Origin: Escherichia coli
GTDB taxonomy: Bacteria > Pseudomonadota > Gammaproteobacteria > Enterobacterales > Enterobacteriaceae
DNA: 64,000 nucleotides
Assembly (NCBI RefSeq): GCF_013315695.1
Contig: NZ_CP054353.1
Direction: 5' to 3' (one strand)
Under the pieces are notes generated by a model. That model searched no databases and was not told where the DNA came from. It was given only the letters and a program-made list of their open reading frames with translations. The position numbers and the translations under genes were made by a program. Within the stretch, counting starts at the first letter, position 1. Each line of letters opens with the position of its first letter. Positions 26,570-31,722 of the stretch are shown one piece after another.

Positions 26570-27589
26570 TTACCTGAAAGCAACAGTAGCCATAGCTAAC
26601 GTCGTGTCGAGCATTCGGTTAGCAAAGCCCCATTCGTTATCGCACCAGACCAACGTTTTGATCAGGTGTGCGCCACTGACCCGGGTTTGGGTGCCATCGA
26701 CAATGGCACTGTGCGGATCGTGGTTAAAATCTACAGAGACCAACGGCAATTCCGTATAGTCAACTATACCATGAAATGCACCTTGTGCTGCTTTTTGCAG
26801 CAACAGGTTGACTTCATTGGCTTTTACAGGTTTCTTCACCGTCACGCTTAAATCGATTGCCGTCACATTTATGGTTGGCACACGTACCGCAATCGCTTCA
26901 AAGCGATCGTTAAATTGCGGAAAAAATCGTGTGATACCGGCGGCCAGTTTAGTATCGACCGGAATGATCGACTGGCTGGCTGCCCGGGTGCGACGCAGGT
27001 CAGGATGGTATGCATCAATAACCTGTTGATCGTGCATGGCGGAGTGAATTGTGGTCACAGTGCCAGACTCAATACCGTACGCATCATCTAACAATTTGAT
27101 GACGGGAATTATGCAATTCGTGGTACAGGAAGCGTTAGAAACGATGCGGTGTTCCGCACGAAGTTGATCCTGATTGACGCCGTAAACAACGGTCGCGTCG
27201 AGATCGTTACTGCCAGGATGTGAAAAGAGCACTTTTTTGGCCCCGGCGGCAATATGCGCTTCGCCATGCTCGCGGGAGCCATATACGCCGGTGCAGTCGA
27301 GGACTACATCAACGCCAAGTTCACGCCAGGGGAGCGATTGTAGTGAACGTTCATGCAATACACGGATGGCGTCATCACCAACAAAAAGTTGATCGCGTTC
27401 CTGTCGTACTTCCCATGCAAAACGGCCATGGCTGGTGTCATATTTCAACAAATGCGCCATGCCCGCAGCATCCGCCAGTTCGTTGATTGCCACCACGGTA
27501 ATTTCCGCCCGGCGTCCGGATTCATACAAAGCACGAACCACATTACGCCCGATGCGACCGAAGCCATTTATCGCTACGCGTACGGTCAT
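26570..27589 (-). CDS. epd: D-erythrose-4-phosphate dehydrogenase (339 aa)
   Basis: Internal start [43 protein letters not shown]... Confidence 0.95.
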
Positions 27590-27816
27590 AGATCTCCTGC
27601 AAGGTTTTCCCTGAGCAAATTTGCCAGACAGAGTAATCCAGCAAATCGTCCGGGGAAACCTTACCTGTCGCAAACTGCGACTGATTGGTTAATTGTCGAA
27701 CATTTAATCGACTGAAACGCTTCAGCTAGGATAAGCGAAACGTGGAATAAAAGGAATGATTGTCCAGTCAAAGAAGACAATTATCTGACTTACGTCACGT
27801 TTTCAGCCCCGCCCCT

Positions 27817-27832
27817 GTGGAATTTATTCCAC
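27817..27832. promoter_or_regulatory. Near-perfect 16-bp palindrome gtggaatttattccac (candidate operator) in the epd / island intergenic region
   Basis: Inverted repeat read directly; a related half-site cgtggaataaaa occurs about 75 bp upstream. Confidence 0.3.
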
Positions 27833-27960
27833 TTTGCAGAATCACGAATAAGCGTAGCAAAATCTTTTCGTTGTGCCGTCACAAACCCTGACTTATATCA
27901 GAATATGACTGATGCAGCGTCGATATTATCCGCAATACGTCCGAGTTTCGGAGTACTCCA

Positions 27961-28392
27961 ATGATGACATTGCCCTACCCATATTCTTCCTCCGCACGTT
28001 TTTACGCGCTGCGCCTGCTCCCCGGGCAGGAAGTTCTCTCCCAATTACGCGCCTTCGCGCAGCAACAACAACTTCACGCCGCGTGGATTGCAGGTTGTAC
28101 CGGCAGTCTGACTGACGTCGCCTTACACTATGCCGGGCAAGAAAACACGACCCTACTAAGCGGTAAGTTCGAAGTCATCGCATTGAACGGCACGCTGGAA
28201 CAGAGTGGTGAACATCTTCATCTCTGCGTTTCCGATCCACACGGCACGATGCTTGGCGGTCATATGATGCCCGGCTGTACCGTGCGGACCACGCTTGAAC
28301 TGGTGATCGGCTGCCTTGAGGAACTGGCGTTTAGCCGCCAGCCTTGCGCGCTTTCTGGTTACGACGAGTTGCATATTTCCCCCGTTAACTAA
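27961..28392 (+). CDS. Small DUF296 / PCC-domain-like protein (143 aa), first gene of accessory operon
   Basis: Product MMTLPYPYSSSARFYALRLLPGQEVL...HLHLCVSDPHGTMLGGHMMPGCTV...; RBS ggag 7 nt upstream; family assignment from recalled features only. Confidence 0.6.
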   Translation: MMTLPYPYSSSARFYALRLLPGQEVLSQLRAFAQQQQLHAAWIAGCTGSLTDVALHYAGQENTTLLSGKFEVIALNGTLEQSGEHLHLCVSDPHGTMLGGHMMPGCTVRTTLELVIGCLEELAFSRQPCALSGYDELHISPVN

Positions 28393-28414
28393 CTATTTTC
28401 AGAGAGGTTTTCTT

Positions 28415-28993
28415 ATGGCGCGTCGCCACTTTTCCAGTCAGGCGCTGGTGTTGATCGTTATATCTATCGCCATCAATATGATCGGCGGGCAACTGGCCAG
28501 CATGGTCAAATTACCTATATTTCTCGACTCCGTCGGCACACTTATTAGCGCAGTACTGCTTGGTCCGGTGATCGGGATGCTGACCGGCTTACTGACCAAT
28601 TTACTCTGGGGATTGCTGACCGACCCGATCGCCGCCGCATTTGCGCCCGTCGCGATGGTCATCGGCCTGGTCACCGGTTGGCTGGCGCGAGCGGGTTGGT
28701 TACGCACCCTGCCAAAAGTCGTTGTTAGCGGCGTGATTATTACGCTTGCGGTAACGGTCGTCGCTGTACCGCTGCGTACTGCGCTGTTCGGCGGTGTCAC
28801 CGGTAGCGGAGCCGATTTGTTCGTTGCCTGGATGCACTCTATGGGGCAAAACCTGGTGGAGTCGGTGGCGATTACGGTGATAGGCGCGAACCTGGTCGAT
28901 AAAATTCTCACGGCGGTGATTGTCTGGCTTTTACTGCGCCAGTTGCCGATTCGCACCACACGACATTTCCCGGCAATGGCTGCCGTGCGCTAA
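28415..28993 (+). CDS. ECF-type transporter substrate-capture (S) component, small multi-helix membrane protein (192 aa)
   Basis: Highly hydrophobic product MARRHFSSQALVLIVISIAINMIGGQLASMVKLPIFLDSVGTLISAVLLGP...; stop directly abuts the T-component start. Confidence 0.6.
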   Translation: MARRHFSSQALVLIVISIAINMIGGQLASMVKLPIFLDSVGTLISAVLLGPVIGMLTGLLTNLLWGLLTDPIAAAFAPVAMVIGLVTGWLARAGWLRTLPKVVVSGVIITLAVTVVAVPLRTALFGGVTGSGADLFVAWMHSMGQNLVESVAITVIGANLVDKILTAVIVWLLLRQLPIRTTRHFPAMAAVR

Positions 28994-29701
28994 ATGCATC
29001 CGTTTACATCCTTAACGCTGTGGACGCTGGCGGCCTGCACCACGCTTATCCTGCCCACACAGACAATACTGCCAGTCTATAGCGCGGCGACCTTTTTCTG
29101 CCTTATTGCGCTGAAGGCCACGCGGCGGCGGGCAAAATATGTTGTCTGGCTGATGTTCTCGCTGGGGGCTGGACTGTGGCTGGTACACGGTGGCTGGCTG
29201 ACAGAATGGCTAAGCGGCACGCCACGCTCGCCAGAACGGTGGACGCATGCTATTACGCTCTGGTTGCGGATTCTGGCGATTGTTTCAACCTCGCAGTTGT
29301 GGATGCAATTCGTCCCCGTGCAACGTTTTATCCGCGCTTTGTTTGCTTCTCGCCTGCCGCCGGGCGTCGCTTATCTGTTCGCCGGGCCGTTGTTGGTCGT
29401 TGAGCAGTTAAAACGGCAATTAGCGATTATTCATGAAGCGCAGCGCGCCCGCGGCGTACCGCTGGATGAGGGCTGGTATCAGCGTTTACGTGCGATGCCC
29501 GCGCTAATTATTCCGCTAACACACAATGCGCTAAACGATCTGGCTATCCGTGGTGCGGCGTTGGACATGCGGGCATTTCGGATCCACAACCGGCGCACTA
29601 CGTTATGGGCACCGCCTGACAGTAACCTGGAAAAAGTGGCACGTTACGCCATGATCTTGCTGATGCTGGCAGAATTCGGAGCGTGGATATGGTTACGTTA
29701 G
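28994..29701 (+). CDS. ECF transporter transmembrane (T) component, EcfT/CbiQ-like (235 aa)
   Basis: Membrane protein with Arg-containing coupling motifs (EAQRARGV, AIRGAALDMRAF); start codon immediately follows the upstream TAA. Confidence 0.65.
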   Translation: MHPFTSLTLWTLAACTTLILPTQTILPVYSAATFFCLIALKATRRRAKYVVWLMFSLGAGLWLVHGGWLTEWLSGTPRSPERWTHAITLWLRILAIVSTSQLWMQFVPVQRFIRALFASRLPPGVAYLFAGPLLVVEQLKRQLAIIHEAQRARGVPLDEGWYQRLRAMPALIIPLTHNALNDLAIRGAALDMRAFRIHNRRTTLWAPPDSNLEKVARYAMILLMLAEFGAWIWLR

Positions 29702-30366
29702 AACAGTTTAGCTATTGCCCGACACACTCAACGCATCCTCCGTTCTGTTATGACTTTCACTATGTCAAACCGGGGATAGTCGCCATCTTTGGTGACAACG
29801 GCAGTGGCAAAAGTACGCTGGCGCAACTGATGGCAGGCTGGTATCCGGACTTTCTGCCAGGAGAGATAACCGGCACGGGGACGCTTCTCGGTACGCCCAT
29901 TGGGCATATCCCGCTTAATGAACAATCCGCCACCATCCAGCTCGTTCAGCAATCGCCCTATTTGCAGCTCTCCGGCTGTACCTTTAGCGTGGAAGAAGAA
30001 GTTGCCTTTGGGCCAGAAAATCTGTGTCTTGCTGAAGAGGAGATTATGGCGCGGATTGATGCCGCCCTGACTCTGACCGAGTGCCAGCCGTTGCGCCATC
30101 GTCACCCGGCAACACTCTCCGGTGGAGAGACACAGCGTGTGGTCATCGCCTGCGCCATCGCGATGCAGCCAAAGCTCTTAATTCTTGATGAAGCCTTTAG
30201 CCGCCTGACGCCGCAGGCCTGCGAAATGCTGTTGCAGCGCTTACAACACTGGGCGCTTGAACGTGGTTCGCTGATTATTCTTTTTGAACGTCATCGTACA
30301 CCTTTCCTGAACTACTGCCAGCAAGCGTGGCAATTGCAAAACGGAGCGCTCCAGCCACTATGTTAA
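29683..30366 (+). CDS. ABC ATPase, EcfA-like (227 aa)
   Basis: Walker A GDNGSGKST, signature LSGGETQRV, Walker B LLILDEA. Confidence 0.85.
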   Translation: MDMVTLEQFSYCPTHSTHPPFCYDFHYVKPGIVAIFGDNGSGKSTLAQLMAGWYPDFLPGEITGTGTLLGTPIGHIPLNEQSATIQLVQQSPYLQLSGCTFSVEEEVAFGPENLCLAEEEIMARIDAALTLTECQPLRHRHPATLSGGETQRVVIACAIAMQPKLLILDEAFSRLTPQACEMLLQRLQHWALERGSLIILFERHRTPFLNYCQQAWQLQNGALQPLC

Positions 30367-31037
30367 CGTTAAATCAGATAACTTATCGCTGGCCTGACGC
30401 GGCAACGGATTGTCTTTGCGACATTTCTCTGCAACTCAAACAAGGTGAATGGTTGGCGCTGACCGGCGACAATGGCGCGGGAAAATCGACGCTGTTACGA
30501 GTAATGGCAGGTCTTCTTACGCCCACAGCCGGTACGGTTATGCTGCAACAACAGGCGATGAAAAACCTGAAAAACCGCCAGCGCGCGGCAAAGATTGGCG
30601 TACTGTTTCAGGAAGCGGAAAACCAGCTTTTTCACAGCACCGTCGCTGACGAGATCGCATTTGGTTTGAAACTGCAAAAATGCCCGGCGGATGAAATCAC
30701 TCAACGTACCAATGCTGCCCTGCAATGCTGTCAGTTAGCAGACACTGCCAGCGCGCATCCGCTGGATCTGCATAGTGCGCAGCGACGGATGGTCGCCGTC
30801 GCCTGCCTGGAAGCACTCTCTCCGCCGCTATTGCTGCTGGACGAGCCGAGTCGGGATTTTGACGAAAATTGGATGAGCGTGTTTGAAAGTTGGCTGGAAA
30901 AGTGCCGCCAGCGAGGCACGAGCGTCGTAGCAATCAGTCATGACGCCGCATTTACCCGGCGTCATTTCTCTCGTGTGGTGCGACTGGAAGATGGTGTAAT
31001 CAGGAACGTTAATCCATCAGACGATATTCACCCGTAG
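30360..31037 (+). CDS. Second ABC ATPase, EcfA-prime-like, with degenerate signature motif (225 aa)
   Basis: Walker A GDNGAGKST, Walker B LLLLDEP, H-loop SHD; LSGGQ replaced by LHSAQ; start overlaps upstream stop as ATGTTAA. Confidence 0.8.
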   Translation: MLTLNQITYRWPDAATDCLCDISLQLKQGEWLALTGDNGAGKSTLLRVMAGLLTPTAGTVMLQQQAMKNLKNRQRAAKIGVLFQEAENQLFHSTVADEIAFGLKLQKCPADEITQRTNAALQCCQLADTASAHPLDLHSAQRRMVAVACLEALSPPLLLLDEPSRDFDENWMSVFESWLEKCRQRGTSVVAISHDAAFTRRHFSRVVRLEDGVIRNVNPSDDIHP

Positions 31038-31722
31038 CGGTCATCATTAAGGTCAAATTTGCAGGCAGACTCTCTTCCAGCACCCGGCGAACATTCGGCC
31101 CGTCGGTACGGTCATAAAAGGCTTCTGCGTCTGCCAGCGATAACCCTCCCGCCAGCTTGCGCCCCACCAGACGCTCCCGCAACGCAGATGCGGGAGCTTT
31201 GATAAAGATCGAGAAATCACAAAATTGCGCAAGCTGGCGCCACTTCTCGTCGTCCAGCAACAACCAGTTTCCTTCGACGATGACGAGTGGTGCGGTAACG
31301 TGCAACGCATCTTCAACAGGATCATGCTTTTGTCGATCGTACTGCGGCCACGTACAATCCCCTTCCACCACCTGGCGCAGATTTTCCGCCAGTTTCGCAA
31401 CGTCAAATGTCTCTGGTGCGCCTTTGAAGGGGCGCAATTGATGCGCGTCCAGCCAGCTATTGTAATGGTGAAAACCATCCATCGGGAGCGTCTGAATAGC
31501 GGGCAGCTCCGGGTCTTGTTGCGCGAGATATTCCCAGAAGGTGGTTAGGGTAGATTTACCCGTCCCCGGCGGAGCGCAAAGAAAAACCACCGTACGCCGC
31601 TGCGGATTTACCGTCTGTAAGGCCGCCAGCATACGCAGCAACGGTTTATGCACGCGTTCTATCTCTTCATCATGGTACTGTGCCTGTATCTTCAGCCCAT
31701 TCACCGTTAATTCAATTTTCAC
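31009..31722 (-). CDS. yggC: P-loop nucleoside/nucleotide kinase family protein YggC (237 aa)
   Basis: Product with P-loop CAPPGTGKSTL; position between epd and yggD. Confidence 0.9.
   Translation of the reverse strand: MKIELTVNGLKIQAQYHDEEIERVHKPLLRMLAALQTVNPQRRTVVFLCAPPGTGKSTLTTFWEYLAQQDPELPAIQTLPMDGFHHYNSWLDAHQLRPFKGAPETFDVAKLAENLRQVVEGDCTWPQYDRQKHDPVEDALHVTAPLVIVEGNWLLLDDEKWRQLAQFCDFSIFIKAPASALRERLVGRKLAGGLSLADAEAFYDRTDGPNVRRVLEESLPANLTLMMTATGEYRLMD

What the first reader, a model, noticed from the sequence alone, without database searches (positions are those of the whole stretch)
30360..31037. Second ECF ATPase has a degenerate ABC signature motif (LHSAQ instead of LSGGQ)
The first ATPase carries canonical Walker A, LSGGETQRV and Walker B, but a weak H-loop region (FERH). 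The second keeps Walker A, Walker B and H-loop but has LHSAQRR at the signature position. This points to an asymmetric heterodimer with one consensus and one degenerate ATP site.
Basis: seen in the sequence. Interest (0 to 1): 0.4.

Follow-up and report, generated by a model that had tools for sequence, protein, structure and literature searches.

The report
ECF transporter with one degenerate ATP site
Many E. coli strains carry a small vitamin-type (ECF) importer whose two ATPase subunits are built so that one of the two shared ATP pockets is intact and the other is crippled, a design well known in ABC exporters that I could not find described for ECF importers.

Summary
The CDS at 30360-31037 (A2, 225 aa) has canonical Walker A, Q-loop, Walker B, D-loop and H-loop. 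LHSAQ (30768-30782) sits where LSGGQ should be, and the protein has no SGG anywhere.

The upstream, translationally coupled ATPase (A1, 29689-30366) has LSGGE. Its switch histidine is replaced by Arg ("FER"), the following His is not conserved, and its D-loop lacks the Asp.

In a head-to-tail ABC dimer, both major defects fall in one composite site (A1 P-loop plus A2 signature). The other site stays largely consensus.

The pattern is conserved, not decay:
- None of 81 readable A2 orthologs from 80 species loci has a canonical signature.
- 67 of 74 core A1 orthologs have Arg at the His position.
- dN/dS is about 0.12-0.16.
- Natural A1-A2 and T-A1-A2 fusions exist.

Among 141 fused ECF-type ATPases, 72% have a degenerate C-terminal signature, yet about 99% keep the C-terminal catalytic residues.

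The operon (PCC protein, S, T, A1, A2) is in 61% of complete E. coli genomes and absent from K-12. It is the ortholog of a Salmonella operon mentioned as a putative Co2+ ECF importer.

Whether the degenerate site is catalytically silent is untested. I rate it a new variant of a known kind, of moderate interest.

The parts
27961..28392 (+). PCC/PPC-domain protein (143 aa), first gene of the operon
   Evidence: Pfam PF03479, 95.5 bits. PGAP names it 'PPC domain-containing DNA-binding protein'. It lies immediately upstream of the S-component in 83 of 87 related loci. A close solved homolog is 2hx0/2nmu.
28415..28993 (+). ECF transporter S-component (192 aa)
   Evidence: Pfam PF12822, 32.1 bits against a cutoff of 30.7. 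NCBIfam CD3073-family S-component, 133 bits, below the cutoff of 180. PGAP annotation. Orthologs are 50-99% identical across phyla.
28994..29701 (+). EcfT/CbiQ-like transmembrane T component (235 aa)
   Evidence: Pfam CbiQ, 22.5 bits, below the cutoff of 25. PGAP names it 'energy-coupling factor transporter transmembrane component T'. The AQxARG and RGAALDMR motifs are conserved in 85 orthologs.
29689..30366 (+). ATPase A1 (225 aa): canonical signature, degenerate H-loop and D-loop
   Evidence: PF00005, 78.5 bits. Motif coordinates: Walker A 29791-29817, LSGGE 30115-30129, Walker B 30175-30192, D-loop FSRLT 30196-30210, LFERH 30280-30294. Family table.
30280..30294 (+). A1 H-loop region LFERH, with Arg201 in the switch-His column
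   Evidence: MAFFT alignments. Gly+8 spacing. Arg in 67 of 74 core orthologs, while the +1 position is variable.
30360..31037 (+). ATPase A2 (225 aa): degenerate signature, all catalytic motifs canonical. This is the reported feature.
   Evidence: PF00005, 96.2 bits. Motif coordinates. Alignments.
30768..30782 (+). A2 signature position: LHSAQ in place of LSGGQ
   Evidence: CTGCATAGTGCGCAG translates to LHSAQ. It aligns to LSGGQ of ABCB1/ABCB4 and to LSGGE of A1. It is conserved as LH[TSAVI][AG]Q in Enterobacterales.

Best explanation
The window carries a dedicated (group-I-like) ECF-type ABC importer operon: PCC protein, S-component, T-component, ATPase A1 and ATPase A2. A1 and A2 most likely form a head-to-tail heterodimer on the T component.

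Site 2 is formed by the A2 Walker A, Walker B, Q-loop and H-loop together with the A1 LSGGE. It is a near-consensus catalytic site, except that the adjacent A1 D-loop lacks its Asp.

Site 1 is formed by the A1 Walker A and Walker B together with the A2 LHSAQ. It keeps the nucleotide-binding elements: the P-loop Lys, the A-loop aromatic residue and the Walker B Asp-Glu. It has lost the switch His (now Arg) and three of the five signature residues.

The most likely mechanism is inferred by analogy with TM287/288, TAP1/2 and CFTR. Site 1 binds ATP but hydrolyses it slowly or not at all, and acts as a latch or allosteric site that keeps the two NBDs engaged. Binding and hydrolysis at site 2 alone drive the closing and opening motion that the T-component coupling helices transmit to topple or release the S-component.

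Shown here: the motif states, their conservation, purifying selection, and gene fusion and coupling. Inferred: the dimer geometry, that ATP is bound but not hydrolysed at site 1, and the transport direction and substrate.
For: - Motif mapping and three concordant alignments; there is no SGG in A2.
- Family survey through the S-component, 80 genome loci: 0 of 81 readable A2-type NBDs has a canonical signature, while all 81 keep the H-loop His, Walker B Glu and D-loop Asp.
- In the same survey, 84 of 84 A1-type NBDs keep LSGG[EQ]. Among core A1 orthologs the His column is R in 67 of 74 (also K, Q, S, C). Walker B Glu is naturally Gln in 3 species.
- Purifying selection: dN/dS is 0.116 for A1 and 0.155 for A2 against E. 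whittamii, and 0.06-0.17 in more distant comparisons where dS approaches saturation.
- Heterodimer support: a 7-nt ATGTTAA overlap; natural fusions P0122 (A1-A2) and P0133/P0167 (T-A1-A2) with the same asymmetric motifs.
- Clade-wide asymmetry in 141 fused ECF-type ATPases: the N-NBD signature is canonical in 128 of 141 but its His is present in only 102 of 141; the C-NBD signature is canonical in only 39 of 141, with His and Glu each present in 140 of 141. Loss of the N-NBD His associates with a degenerate C-NBD signature (36/39 versus 66/102; Fisher p = 7e-4).
- These fused proteins score best against the NCBIfam ECF_ATPase_1/2 models.
- Degenerate sites of this composition are an established class in ABC exporters (review PMC3971661).
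Against: - No biochemical data exist for this system, so hydrolysis at site 1 has not been measured.
- The catalytic Glu of A1 is retained in most species. The conserved Arg and the polar His/Asn/Asp in the signature could in principle support an alternative chemistry.
- A1's D-loop, which by standard geometry abuts the 'consensus' site, is also non-canonical, so site 2 is not perfectly consensus.
- In the group II ECF transporter ECF-FolT/CbrT, each single Walker-B E-to-Q mutant abolishes ATPase activity and transport (PMC10368641). A one-site ECF motor therefore cannot be assumed from group II behaviour.
- The 141 fused relatives were selected by similarity to A2, which may enrich for degenerate signatures.
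Confidence: 0.7

Rival explanations
1. Both sites are catalytically active. In this reading LH[STA]AQ plus the A1 Arg is an alternative working configuration. The Arg replaces the switch His as the gamma-phosphate linchpin, and the His/Asn/Asp at signature position 2 replaces the Ser contact.
For: - A1 keeps the Walker A Lys, the Walker B Asp-Glu, the Q-loop Gln and the A-loop aromatic residue in nearly all orthologs.
- The replacement residues are themselves conserved (Arg in 67 of 74; His in most Enterobacterales), which suggests a selected function rather than neglect.
- Group II ECF transporters need both catalytic glutamates (PMC10368641).
Against: - Signature position 2 varies among H, N, D and Y, and the His column among R, K, Q, S and C. 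That is not what a precise catalytic dyad would show.
- Three species carry a natural Walker-B E-to-Q in A1, the classic hydrolysis-dead substitution.
- The more distant operons have signatures such as LSLAW, LGYSE and LDYYL that cannot contact the phosphate in the canonical way.
- From memory, not checked here: mutations of the signature Gly residues and of the H-loop His (for example MalK H192R) severely reduce ATPase activity in model ABC transporters.
Confidence: 0.2
2. A1 and A2 do not pair with each other. Each forms a homodimer, or only one of them is used, so the 'degenerate site' is an artefact of assuming a heterodimer.
For: Group I ECF systems such as BioMNY and CbiMNQO use a homodimeric ATPase (general knowledge). 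No structure of this complex exists.
Against: - The two genes are always adjacent in the same order and overlap.
- They occur as a single fused A1-A2 polypeptide in several lineages: P0122, P0133, P0167, L076 and L087.
- An A2 homodimer would have two degenerate signatures, and an A1 homodimer would have no switch His at all.
- The degeneracies are complementary, which is expected only for a heterodimer.
Confidence: 0.05
3. The gene is decaying: LHSAQ is a lesion in a dispensable accessory gene that is being lost, as in K-12.
For: - The operon is absent from 39% of complete E. coli genomes, including MG1655.
- Occasional truncated or split copies occur in E. albertii (L010) and Trabulsiella (L019).
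Against: - dN/dS is about 0.12-0.16.
- The ORF is intact, with all catalytic motifs invariant in 72 of 72 core orthologs.
- The same degenerate motif is conserved from Escherichia to Aeromonas, and related forms occur in Chloroflexi.
- The Salmonella ortholog operon is reported as transcriptionally regulated, being anaerobically activated (PMC11481890).
Confidence: 0.03

Closest known systems
Group II ECF transporters (EcfA-EcfA'-EcfT plus S), e.g. Lactobacillus ECF-FolT2/ECF-CbrT and T. maritima EcfA/EcfA'
   Same: - Four-part architecture: S-component, T-component and two different ABC ATPases.
- The best NCBIfam and PDB matches among importers are EcfA1 and EcfA2.
- The T component has Arg-containing coupling-helix motifs.
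   Different: - Group II has LSGGQ and the switch His in both ATPases, and both catalytic glutamates are required (PMC10368641).
- Here one composite site is degenerate.
- A1 and A2 are about 225 aa and lack the roughly 50-residue C-terminal extension of EcfA and EcfA' (they match model positions up to about 226 of 279).
- Their scores are far below the equivalog cutoffs (120 and 150 bits against 315 and 330).
- The module is dedicated, encoded together with its own S-component.
Group I ECF transporters with a fused duplicated ATPase, e.g. B. subtilis YkoEDC (YkoD)
   Same: - A dedicated operon with its own S and T components and two NBDs in a fixed N-to-C order (PMC5037267).
- The closest non-orthologous relatives of A2 are C-terminal NBDs of such fused proteins. 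Many of them show the same asymmetry: the C-NBD signature is degenerate in 102 of 141.
   Different: - The E. coli genes are split rather than fused.
- I could not check YkoD itself.
- I found no published description of the asymmetry for these proteins.
Asymmetric ABC exporters with one degenerate site (TM287/288, TAP1/TAP2, CFTR, LmrCD)
   Same: - The logic is identical: one NBD loses catalytic residues (H-loop His and/or Walker B Glu), the partner loses the consensus signature, and both changes fall in one composite site.
- The degenerate site retains the nucleotide-binding residues (PMC3971661).
   Different: - Those are type IV exporters with NBDs fused to their transmembrane domains. This is an ECF-type (type III) importer with soluble NBDs docking on a T scaffold.
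- The substitutions differ: His to Arg here rather than His to Gln or Ser, and LH[STA]AQ here rather than LAAGQ or LSHGH (exporter motifs quoted from memory).
Salmonella Typhimurium STM3071-STM3075 operon (ortholog)
   Same: - Same five genes in the same position downstream of epd (L003).
- 72-77% amino-acid identity, with the same motifs (LHAAQ; LFERN).
- Described as a putative five-gene ECF transporter operon suggested to import Co2+. It is anaerobically activated and conserved in pathogenic E. coli (PMC11481890).
   Different: - Nothing in that source concerns the ATPase sites.
- The cobalt assignment comes from a thesis that I could not read. The S-component is not CbiM-like: it hits PF12822 and is CD3073-like.
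CUT2-family sugar importers with fused ATPases (RbsA, MglA, XylG)
   Same: From memory: these are ABC importers whose fused ATPase has one consensus site and one degenerate site.
   Different: - They are type I/II importers that depend on a periplasmic binding protein, and they are unrelated to ECF architecture.
- They were not examined here.

Membership tests
ABC transporter ATPase (PF00005), applied to A2 | Walker A GxxGxGK[ST] | tested here: met
   GDNGAGKST at 30465-30491. PF00005 scores 96.2 bits against a cutoff of 25.
ABC transporter ATPase (PF00005), applied to A2 | Signature (C-loop) LSGGQ/E | tested here: not met
   LHSAQ occupies the aligned position. There is no SGG in the protein. 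It is degenerate in 81 of 81 readable orthologs.
ABC transporter ATPase (PF00005), applied to A2 | Walker B hhhhDE, D-loop SxxxD, Q-loop Gln and H-loop His | tested here: met
   LLLLDE, SRDFD, LFQ and ISHD. The Walker B Glu, D-loop Asp and H-loop His are each invariant in 72 of 72 core orthologs.
ABC transporter ATPase (PF00005), applied to A1 | H-loop switch histidine | tested here: not met
   Arg201 occupies the His column by MAFFT alignment and by Gly+8 spacing. The His at +1 is not conserved. A single-sequence HMMER alignment could place that His only by opening a 2-3 residue gap.
ABC transporter ATPase (PF00005), applied to A1 | Walker A, Q-loop, LSGGQ/E and Walker B D-E | tested here: met
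   GDNGSGKST, VQQ, LSGGE and LLILDE. PF00005 scores 78.5 bits. The D-loop is FSRLT and lacks the Asp.
ECF (type III ABC) transporter | S-component of the ECF_trnsprt fold encoded with the module | tested here: met
   PF12822 scores 32.1 bits against a cutoff of 30.7. PGAP names it 'ECF transporter S component'.
ECF (type III ABC) transporter | EcfT/CbiQ T-component with two Arg-containing coupling-helix motifs | tested here: inconclusive
   PF02361 scores 22.5 bits, below the cutoff of 25. AQxARG and RGAALDMR are conserved in 85 orthologs, and PGAP names the protein EcfT.
Group II EcfA/EcfA' equivalogs (TIGR04520/TIGR04521) | Score above the equivalog cutoff, and full-length match including the C-terminal domain | tested here: not met
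   A1 scores 120.3 and 106.6 bits, and A2 scores 145.3 and 149.8 bits, against cutoffs of 315 and 330. The matches end at about model position 220-226 of 269/279.
CD3073-family ECF S-component (NF045596) | Score at or above 180 bits | tested here: not met
   133.4 bits. The protein is related but outside the curated family.
Asymmetric ABC NBD heterodimers with a degenerate site | Two non-identical NBDs that pair with each other | tested here: met
   A1 and A2 are 33% identical. The genes overlap. Natural A1-A2 and T-A1-A2 fusions exist. The pairing itself is inferred, not observed.
Asymmetric ABC NBD heterodimers with a degenerate site | Catalytic-residue loss in one NBD and signature loss in the partner, converging on one composite site | tested here: met
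   A1 has His replaced by Arg, and A2 has LSGGQ replaced by LHSAQ. Their convergence on one site follows from the established head-to-tail geometry and was not modelled here.
Asymmetric ABC NBD heterodimers with a degenerate site | The degenerate site binds ATP but does not hydrolyse it | not testable with these tools
   This needs ATPase and nucleotide-occlusion assays or a structure.

The most novel reading that the evidence does not exclude
This reading proposes that the clade's ECF importers run on a single hydrolytic ATP site. The second, hard-wired non-hydrolytic site would act as an ATP latch.

The design would be ancient and would be the majority state among dedicated ECF transporters with duplicated or fused ATPases: 72% of 141 sampled relatives have a degenerate C-terminal signature.

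That contrasts with the group II paradigm, in which both catalytic glutamates are essential. It would also give a natural, genetically tractable E. coli and Salmonella system for asking what each ATP site does in the toppling cycle.
Probability: 0.45. Interest if true: 0.55.

Novelty: new variant of a known kind. Interest (0 to 1): 0.4.

Why it matters
ECF transporters are studied almost entirely through group II systems, which have two consensus ATP sites. In those systems both sites are required, yet cryo-EM under turnover shows asymmetric occupancy, with ATP retained at one site and ADP at the other. The order and role of the two hydrolysis events remain open (PMC10368641).

A family in which evolution has fixed one site as degenerate would be a natural experiment on that question. 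It is found from Enterobacterales to Chloroflexi and occurs in split, fused and triple-fused forms.

It is also native to E. coli and Salmonella, where genetics is easy. K-12 lacks the operon, so it offers a clean null background.

On the practical side, the operon is a poorly characterised accessory transporter of pathogenic E. coli and Salmonella. Its substrate is unknown, and it always comes with a PCC-domain partner.

Tried and rejected
- **H-loop placement in A1.** Single-sequence HMMER alignments of A1 to ABCB1 and pgp-1 placed the His of FERH on the canonical H-loop His by opening a 2-3 residue gap. I rejected this. Family alignments and Gly+8 spacing put Arg in that column, and the His is not conserved.
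- **EcfA versus EcfA' orthology.** I tried to assign A1 and A2 to EcfA and EcfA'. NCBIfam scores are nearly tied, and both proteins are closer to EcfA1 chains in the PDB. This stays unresolved, so I cannot say whether the degenerate site corresponds to the ATP-retaining EcfA site of ECF-FolT2.
- **Regulatory clues to the substrate.** There is no Rfam riboswitch in 27600-28500. Sigma-70 and terminator hits are no more frequent than in shuffled sequence. No FNR-like TTGAT-N4-ATCAA site with up to 2 mismatches lies in the epd-operon intergenic region.
- **Literature.** Four full-text searches for a degenerate or asymmetric ATP site in ECF transporters found nothing specific. A search for the E. 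coli operon by its context found nothing.
- **S-component.** It has no sequence relative among solved structures.
- **Structure prediction.** I did not run it, because the tools return no coordinates and so could not show the geometry of His or Arg relative to the nucleotide.
- **Pseudogene and homodimer readings.** Both were considered and rejected (see the rival explanations).
Full report
**Location and context**

The window is E. coli chromosome. The 3.4-kb region 27700-31100 is 100% identical to E. coli NZ_OZ547117.1.

A five-gene plus-strand operon lies between epd (minus strand, 26570-27673) and a yggC-like kinase (minus strand, 31009-31722):
- a PCC/PPC-domain protein, 27961-28392
- an ECF S-component, 28415-28993
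- an EcfT/CbiQ-like T-component, 28994-29701
- ATPase A1, 29689-30366
- ATPase A2, 30360-31037

The reported coordinates are exactly the PGAP CDS of A2. The gene junctions are tight. S and T are adjacent as TAAATG, T and A1 overlap by 13 nt, and A1 and A2 overlap by 7 nt in ATGTTAA. This pattern indicates translational coupling.

The operon covers at least 80% of the query in 3319 of 5426 complete E. coli genomes. It is absent from K-12 MG1655, where epd is followed directly by yggC. It sits at the same position in Atlantibacter, Salmonella and Klebsiella.

**Checking the observation**

A2 has these motifs:
- Walker A GDNGAGKST
- Q-loop LFQ
- Walker B LLLLDE
- D-loop SRDFD
- H-loop ISHD
- LHSAQ (30768-30782) at the signature position

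Three independent alignments agree on that last position:
- HMMER against both NBDs of the solved ABCB4 and ABCB1 structures aligns 'LDLHSAQRRMVAVA' with 'xQLSGGQKQRIAIA'.
- A MAFFT alignment with 282 NBDs of ECF-type fused ATPases puts LHSAQ in the column that is LSGG[QE] in 128 of 141 N-terminal NBDs.
- BLASTP of A1 against A2 (33% identity) aligns HPATLSGGETQRV with HPLDLHSAQRRMV.

A2 contains no SGG anywhere.

**Refining the A1 H-loop**

Pairwise HMMER could place the His of FERH on the canonical His only by opening a 2-3 residue gap. Family-level data point elsewhere.

In A2 and in the more distant A1-type NBDs, the switch His lies 8 residues after a conserved Gly. In A1, that position is Arg201. 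MAFFT places Arg in the His column in two separate alignments.

Across 74 readable core orthologs the His column is:
- R in 67
- K in 2
- Q in 2
- S, C and H in 1 each

The next residue, His in E. coli, is highly variable: N 34, H 11, R 7, T 6, and others. So the switch His is replaced by Arg, and the nearby His is incidental.

A1's D-loop is FSRLT, with Thr in place of the canonical Asp in 70 of 74 core orthologs.

**Conservation**

I used the S-component alignment to retrieve 80 loci from one-genome-per-species collections. Taxa covered include Escherichia, Citrobacter, Klebsiella, Salmonella, Proteus, Providencia, Morganella, Budvicia, Aeromonas, Wohlfahrtiimonas and Laribacter, plus Synergistaceae, Spirochaetaceae, Desulfobulbales and Chloroflexi. 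Every complete locus has an A1-type NBD followed by an A2-type NBD.

Results:
- All 84 A1-type NBDs keep LSGG[EQ].
- None of the 81 readable A2-type NBDs has a canonical signature.
- Core signatures are LHTAQ 23, LHAGQ 19, LHSAQ 6, LHVAQ 6, LHAAQ 3, LDAGQ 3, LN.. 7, and others.
- The more distant (outgroup) operons have LSLAW, LNLTE, LGYSE and LDYYL.
- All 81 readable A2-type NBDs keep the H-loop His, the Walker B Glu and the D-loop Asp.

The 120 closest database homologs give the same picture, LH[TSA]AQ.

In three species (two Aeromonas and a Laribacter MAG), A1 carries a natural Walker-B E-to-Q substitution.

dN/dS against E. whittamii is 0.116 for A1 and 0.155 for A2. It is 0.06-0.17 in more distant comparisons where dS approaches saturation. 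Both genes are under purifying selection. The degenerate motif is maintained, not decaying.

**Heterodimer and site assignment**

A1 and A2 are distinct paralogs. Cross-scores are about 50 bits, against more than 100 bits for orthologs. Their order is fixed.

In several lineages they form one polypeptide:
- P0122, an A1-A2 fusion of 503 aa, encoded in a PCC-S-T-AA operon
- P0133 and P0167, T-A1-A2 triple fusions
- L076 and L087

All carry the same motif asymmetry.

In the established head-to-tail ABC dimer, each ATP is held between the Walker A, Walker B, Q-loop and H-loop of one NBD and the signature of the other. On that geometry:
- A1's missing His and A2's degenerate signature belong to one site (site 1).
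- A2's intact catalytic set and A1's LSGGE form the other (site 2).
- A1's D-loop is the one deviation that lies next to site 2.

This geometry is inferred from general knowledge. It was not modelled here.

**Wider pattern**

The exhaustive representative search with A2 returned mostly two-NBD fused proteins. Their best NCBIfam matches are the ECF_ATPase_1/2 models. Counts for 141 of them:

| Feature | N-terminal NBD | C-terminal NBD |
|---|---|---|
| Canonical signature | 128 | 39 |
| H-loop His | 102 | 140 |
| Walker B Glu | 127 | 140 |
| Walker A Lys | 137 | 141 |

Loss of the N-NBD His goes with a degenerate C-NBD signature: 36 of 39 against 66 of 102 (odds ratio 6.5, Fisher p = 7e-4).

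Degeneracy is thus concentrated on one composite site across this clade. One caveat applies: the sample was chosen by similarity to A2.

**Comparison with what is known**

Degenerate sites are a textbook feature of heterodimeric ABC exporters (PMC3971661).

For ECF transporters, the studied group II systems have LSGGQ in both subunits. Each single Walker-B E-to-Q mutant abolishes ATPase activity and transport. Even so, turnover cryo-EM shows ATP retained at EcfA and ADP at EcfA' (PMC10368641).

I found no paper describing a degenerate site in an ECF ATPase. The YkoEDC paper mentions the fused YkoD but not its motifs.

The Salmonella ortholog operon is mentioned as a putative five-gene ECF transporter suggested to import Co2+. 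That source describes it as anaerobically activated and conserved in pathogenic E. coli (PMC11481890, citing a thesis on STM3071). The S-component, however, is of the PF12822/CD3073-like type, not CbiM. I treat the substrate as unknown.

A1 and A2 fall far below the EcfA and EcfA' equivalog cutoffs and lack the C-terminal extension. They work like ECF ATPases but are not members of the group II EcfA/EcfA' families.

**Mechanism proposed (inferred)**

Site 1 keeps the P-loop Lys, the A-loop aromatic residue and the Walker B Asp. It therefore probably binds ATP, but without a consensus signature and switch His it probably hydrolyses poorly.

I propose that site 1 acts as a stable ATP latch or allosteric site, while site 2 turns over and drives the T-component coupling helices. 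In Enterobacteriaceae the two NBDs lack the C-terminal dimerisation extension, so a permanently occupied site might also help hold the dimer together. That last point is speculation.

The main rival is that Arg plus His/Asn/Asp form an alternative active configuration. The variability of these positions and the natural E-to-Q variants argue against it. Only biochemistry can decide.

**Verdict**

- The functional consequence is untested.
- This is a new variant of a known kind: an ECF importer with the asymmetric NBD design known from exporters.
- Interest is moderate. The principle is well known, but it appears undescribed for ECF transporters, is widespread in the clade, and is directly testable in E. 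coli and Salmonella.

Noticed in passing
window 27961-28392; loci L002-L088: A PCC/PPC-domain (PF03479) gene lies immediately upstream of the S-component in 83 of 87 related loci, from Proteobacteria to Chloroflexi, Spirochaetes and Synergistetes. It therefore looks like an obligate partner of this ECF transporter rather than a local regulator. A close homolog has a solved structure (2hx0/2nmu, 'putative DNA-binding protein'). Its role is unknown.
   Followed up: partly
window 27700-31100: The whole operon is a presence/absence polymorphism in E. coli. It is present in 3319 of 5426 complete genomes and absent in K-12 MG1655, where epd abuts yggC. In genomes that lack it, only about 100 nt at the epd side still match.
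   Followed up: partly
L072, L073 (Aeromonas), L081 (Laribacter MAG): NBD1 Walker B: The A1-type NBD has LLILDQ or LLVLDQ. This is a natural Glu-to-Gln change at the catalytic base, the substitution used experimentally to kill hydrolysis. It occurs together with Q or S in the switch-His column and LDAGQ or LDAGA as the partner signature.
   Followed up: partly
L047, L049-L075 (Morganellaceae, Budviciaceae, Aeromonas) versus Enterobacteriaceae loci: The spacing from the NBD1 start to the NBD2 start is about 826 nt in Proteus, Providencia and Morganella, against 671 nt in E. coli. A1 therefore carries roughly 50 extra C-terminal residues in those lineages, and the extension has been lost in Enterobacteriaceae.
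   Followed up: no
L010 (E. albertii), L019 (Trabulsiella odontotermitis): These look like pseudogenised copies. The A1-type NBD is truncated after about 150 residues in E. albertii, and the A2-type NBD is split into two frames in Trabulsiella.
   Followed up: no
L048 (Buttiauxella sp. B2): NBD1 H-loop: This is the only core ortholog with His in the switch column ('LFAH' instead of 'LFER'). The partner signature is still degenerate (LHVAQ).
   Followed up: no
window 31009-31037: The 3' end of A2 overlaps the 3' end of the convergent yggC-like nucleoside/nucleotide kinase gene by 29 nt.
   Followed up: no
window 28415-28993 and alignment A1: The S-component is unusually conserved: 50-55% identity between E. 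coli and Chloroflexi or metagenomic triple-fusion systems. It has an invariant GVTGSGAD motif and no sequence relative among solved structures. The substrate is unknown, and the legacy 'cobalt' label probably derives from CbiQ/CbiO homology.
   Followed up: partly
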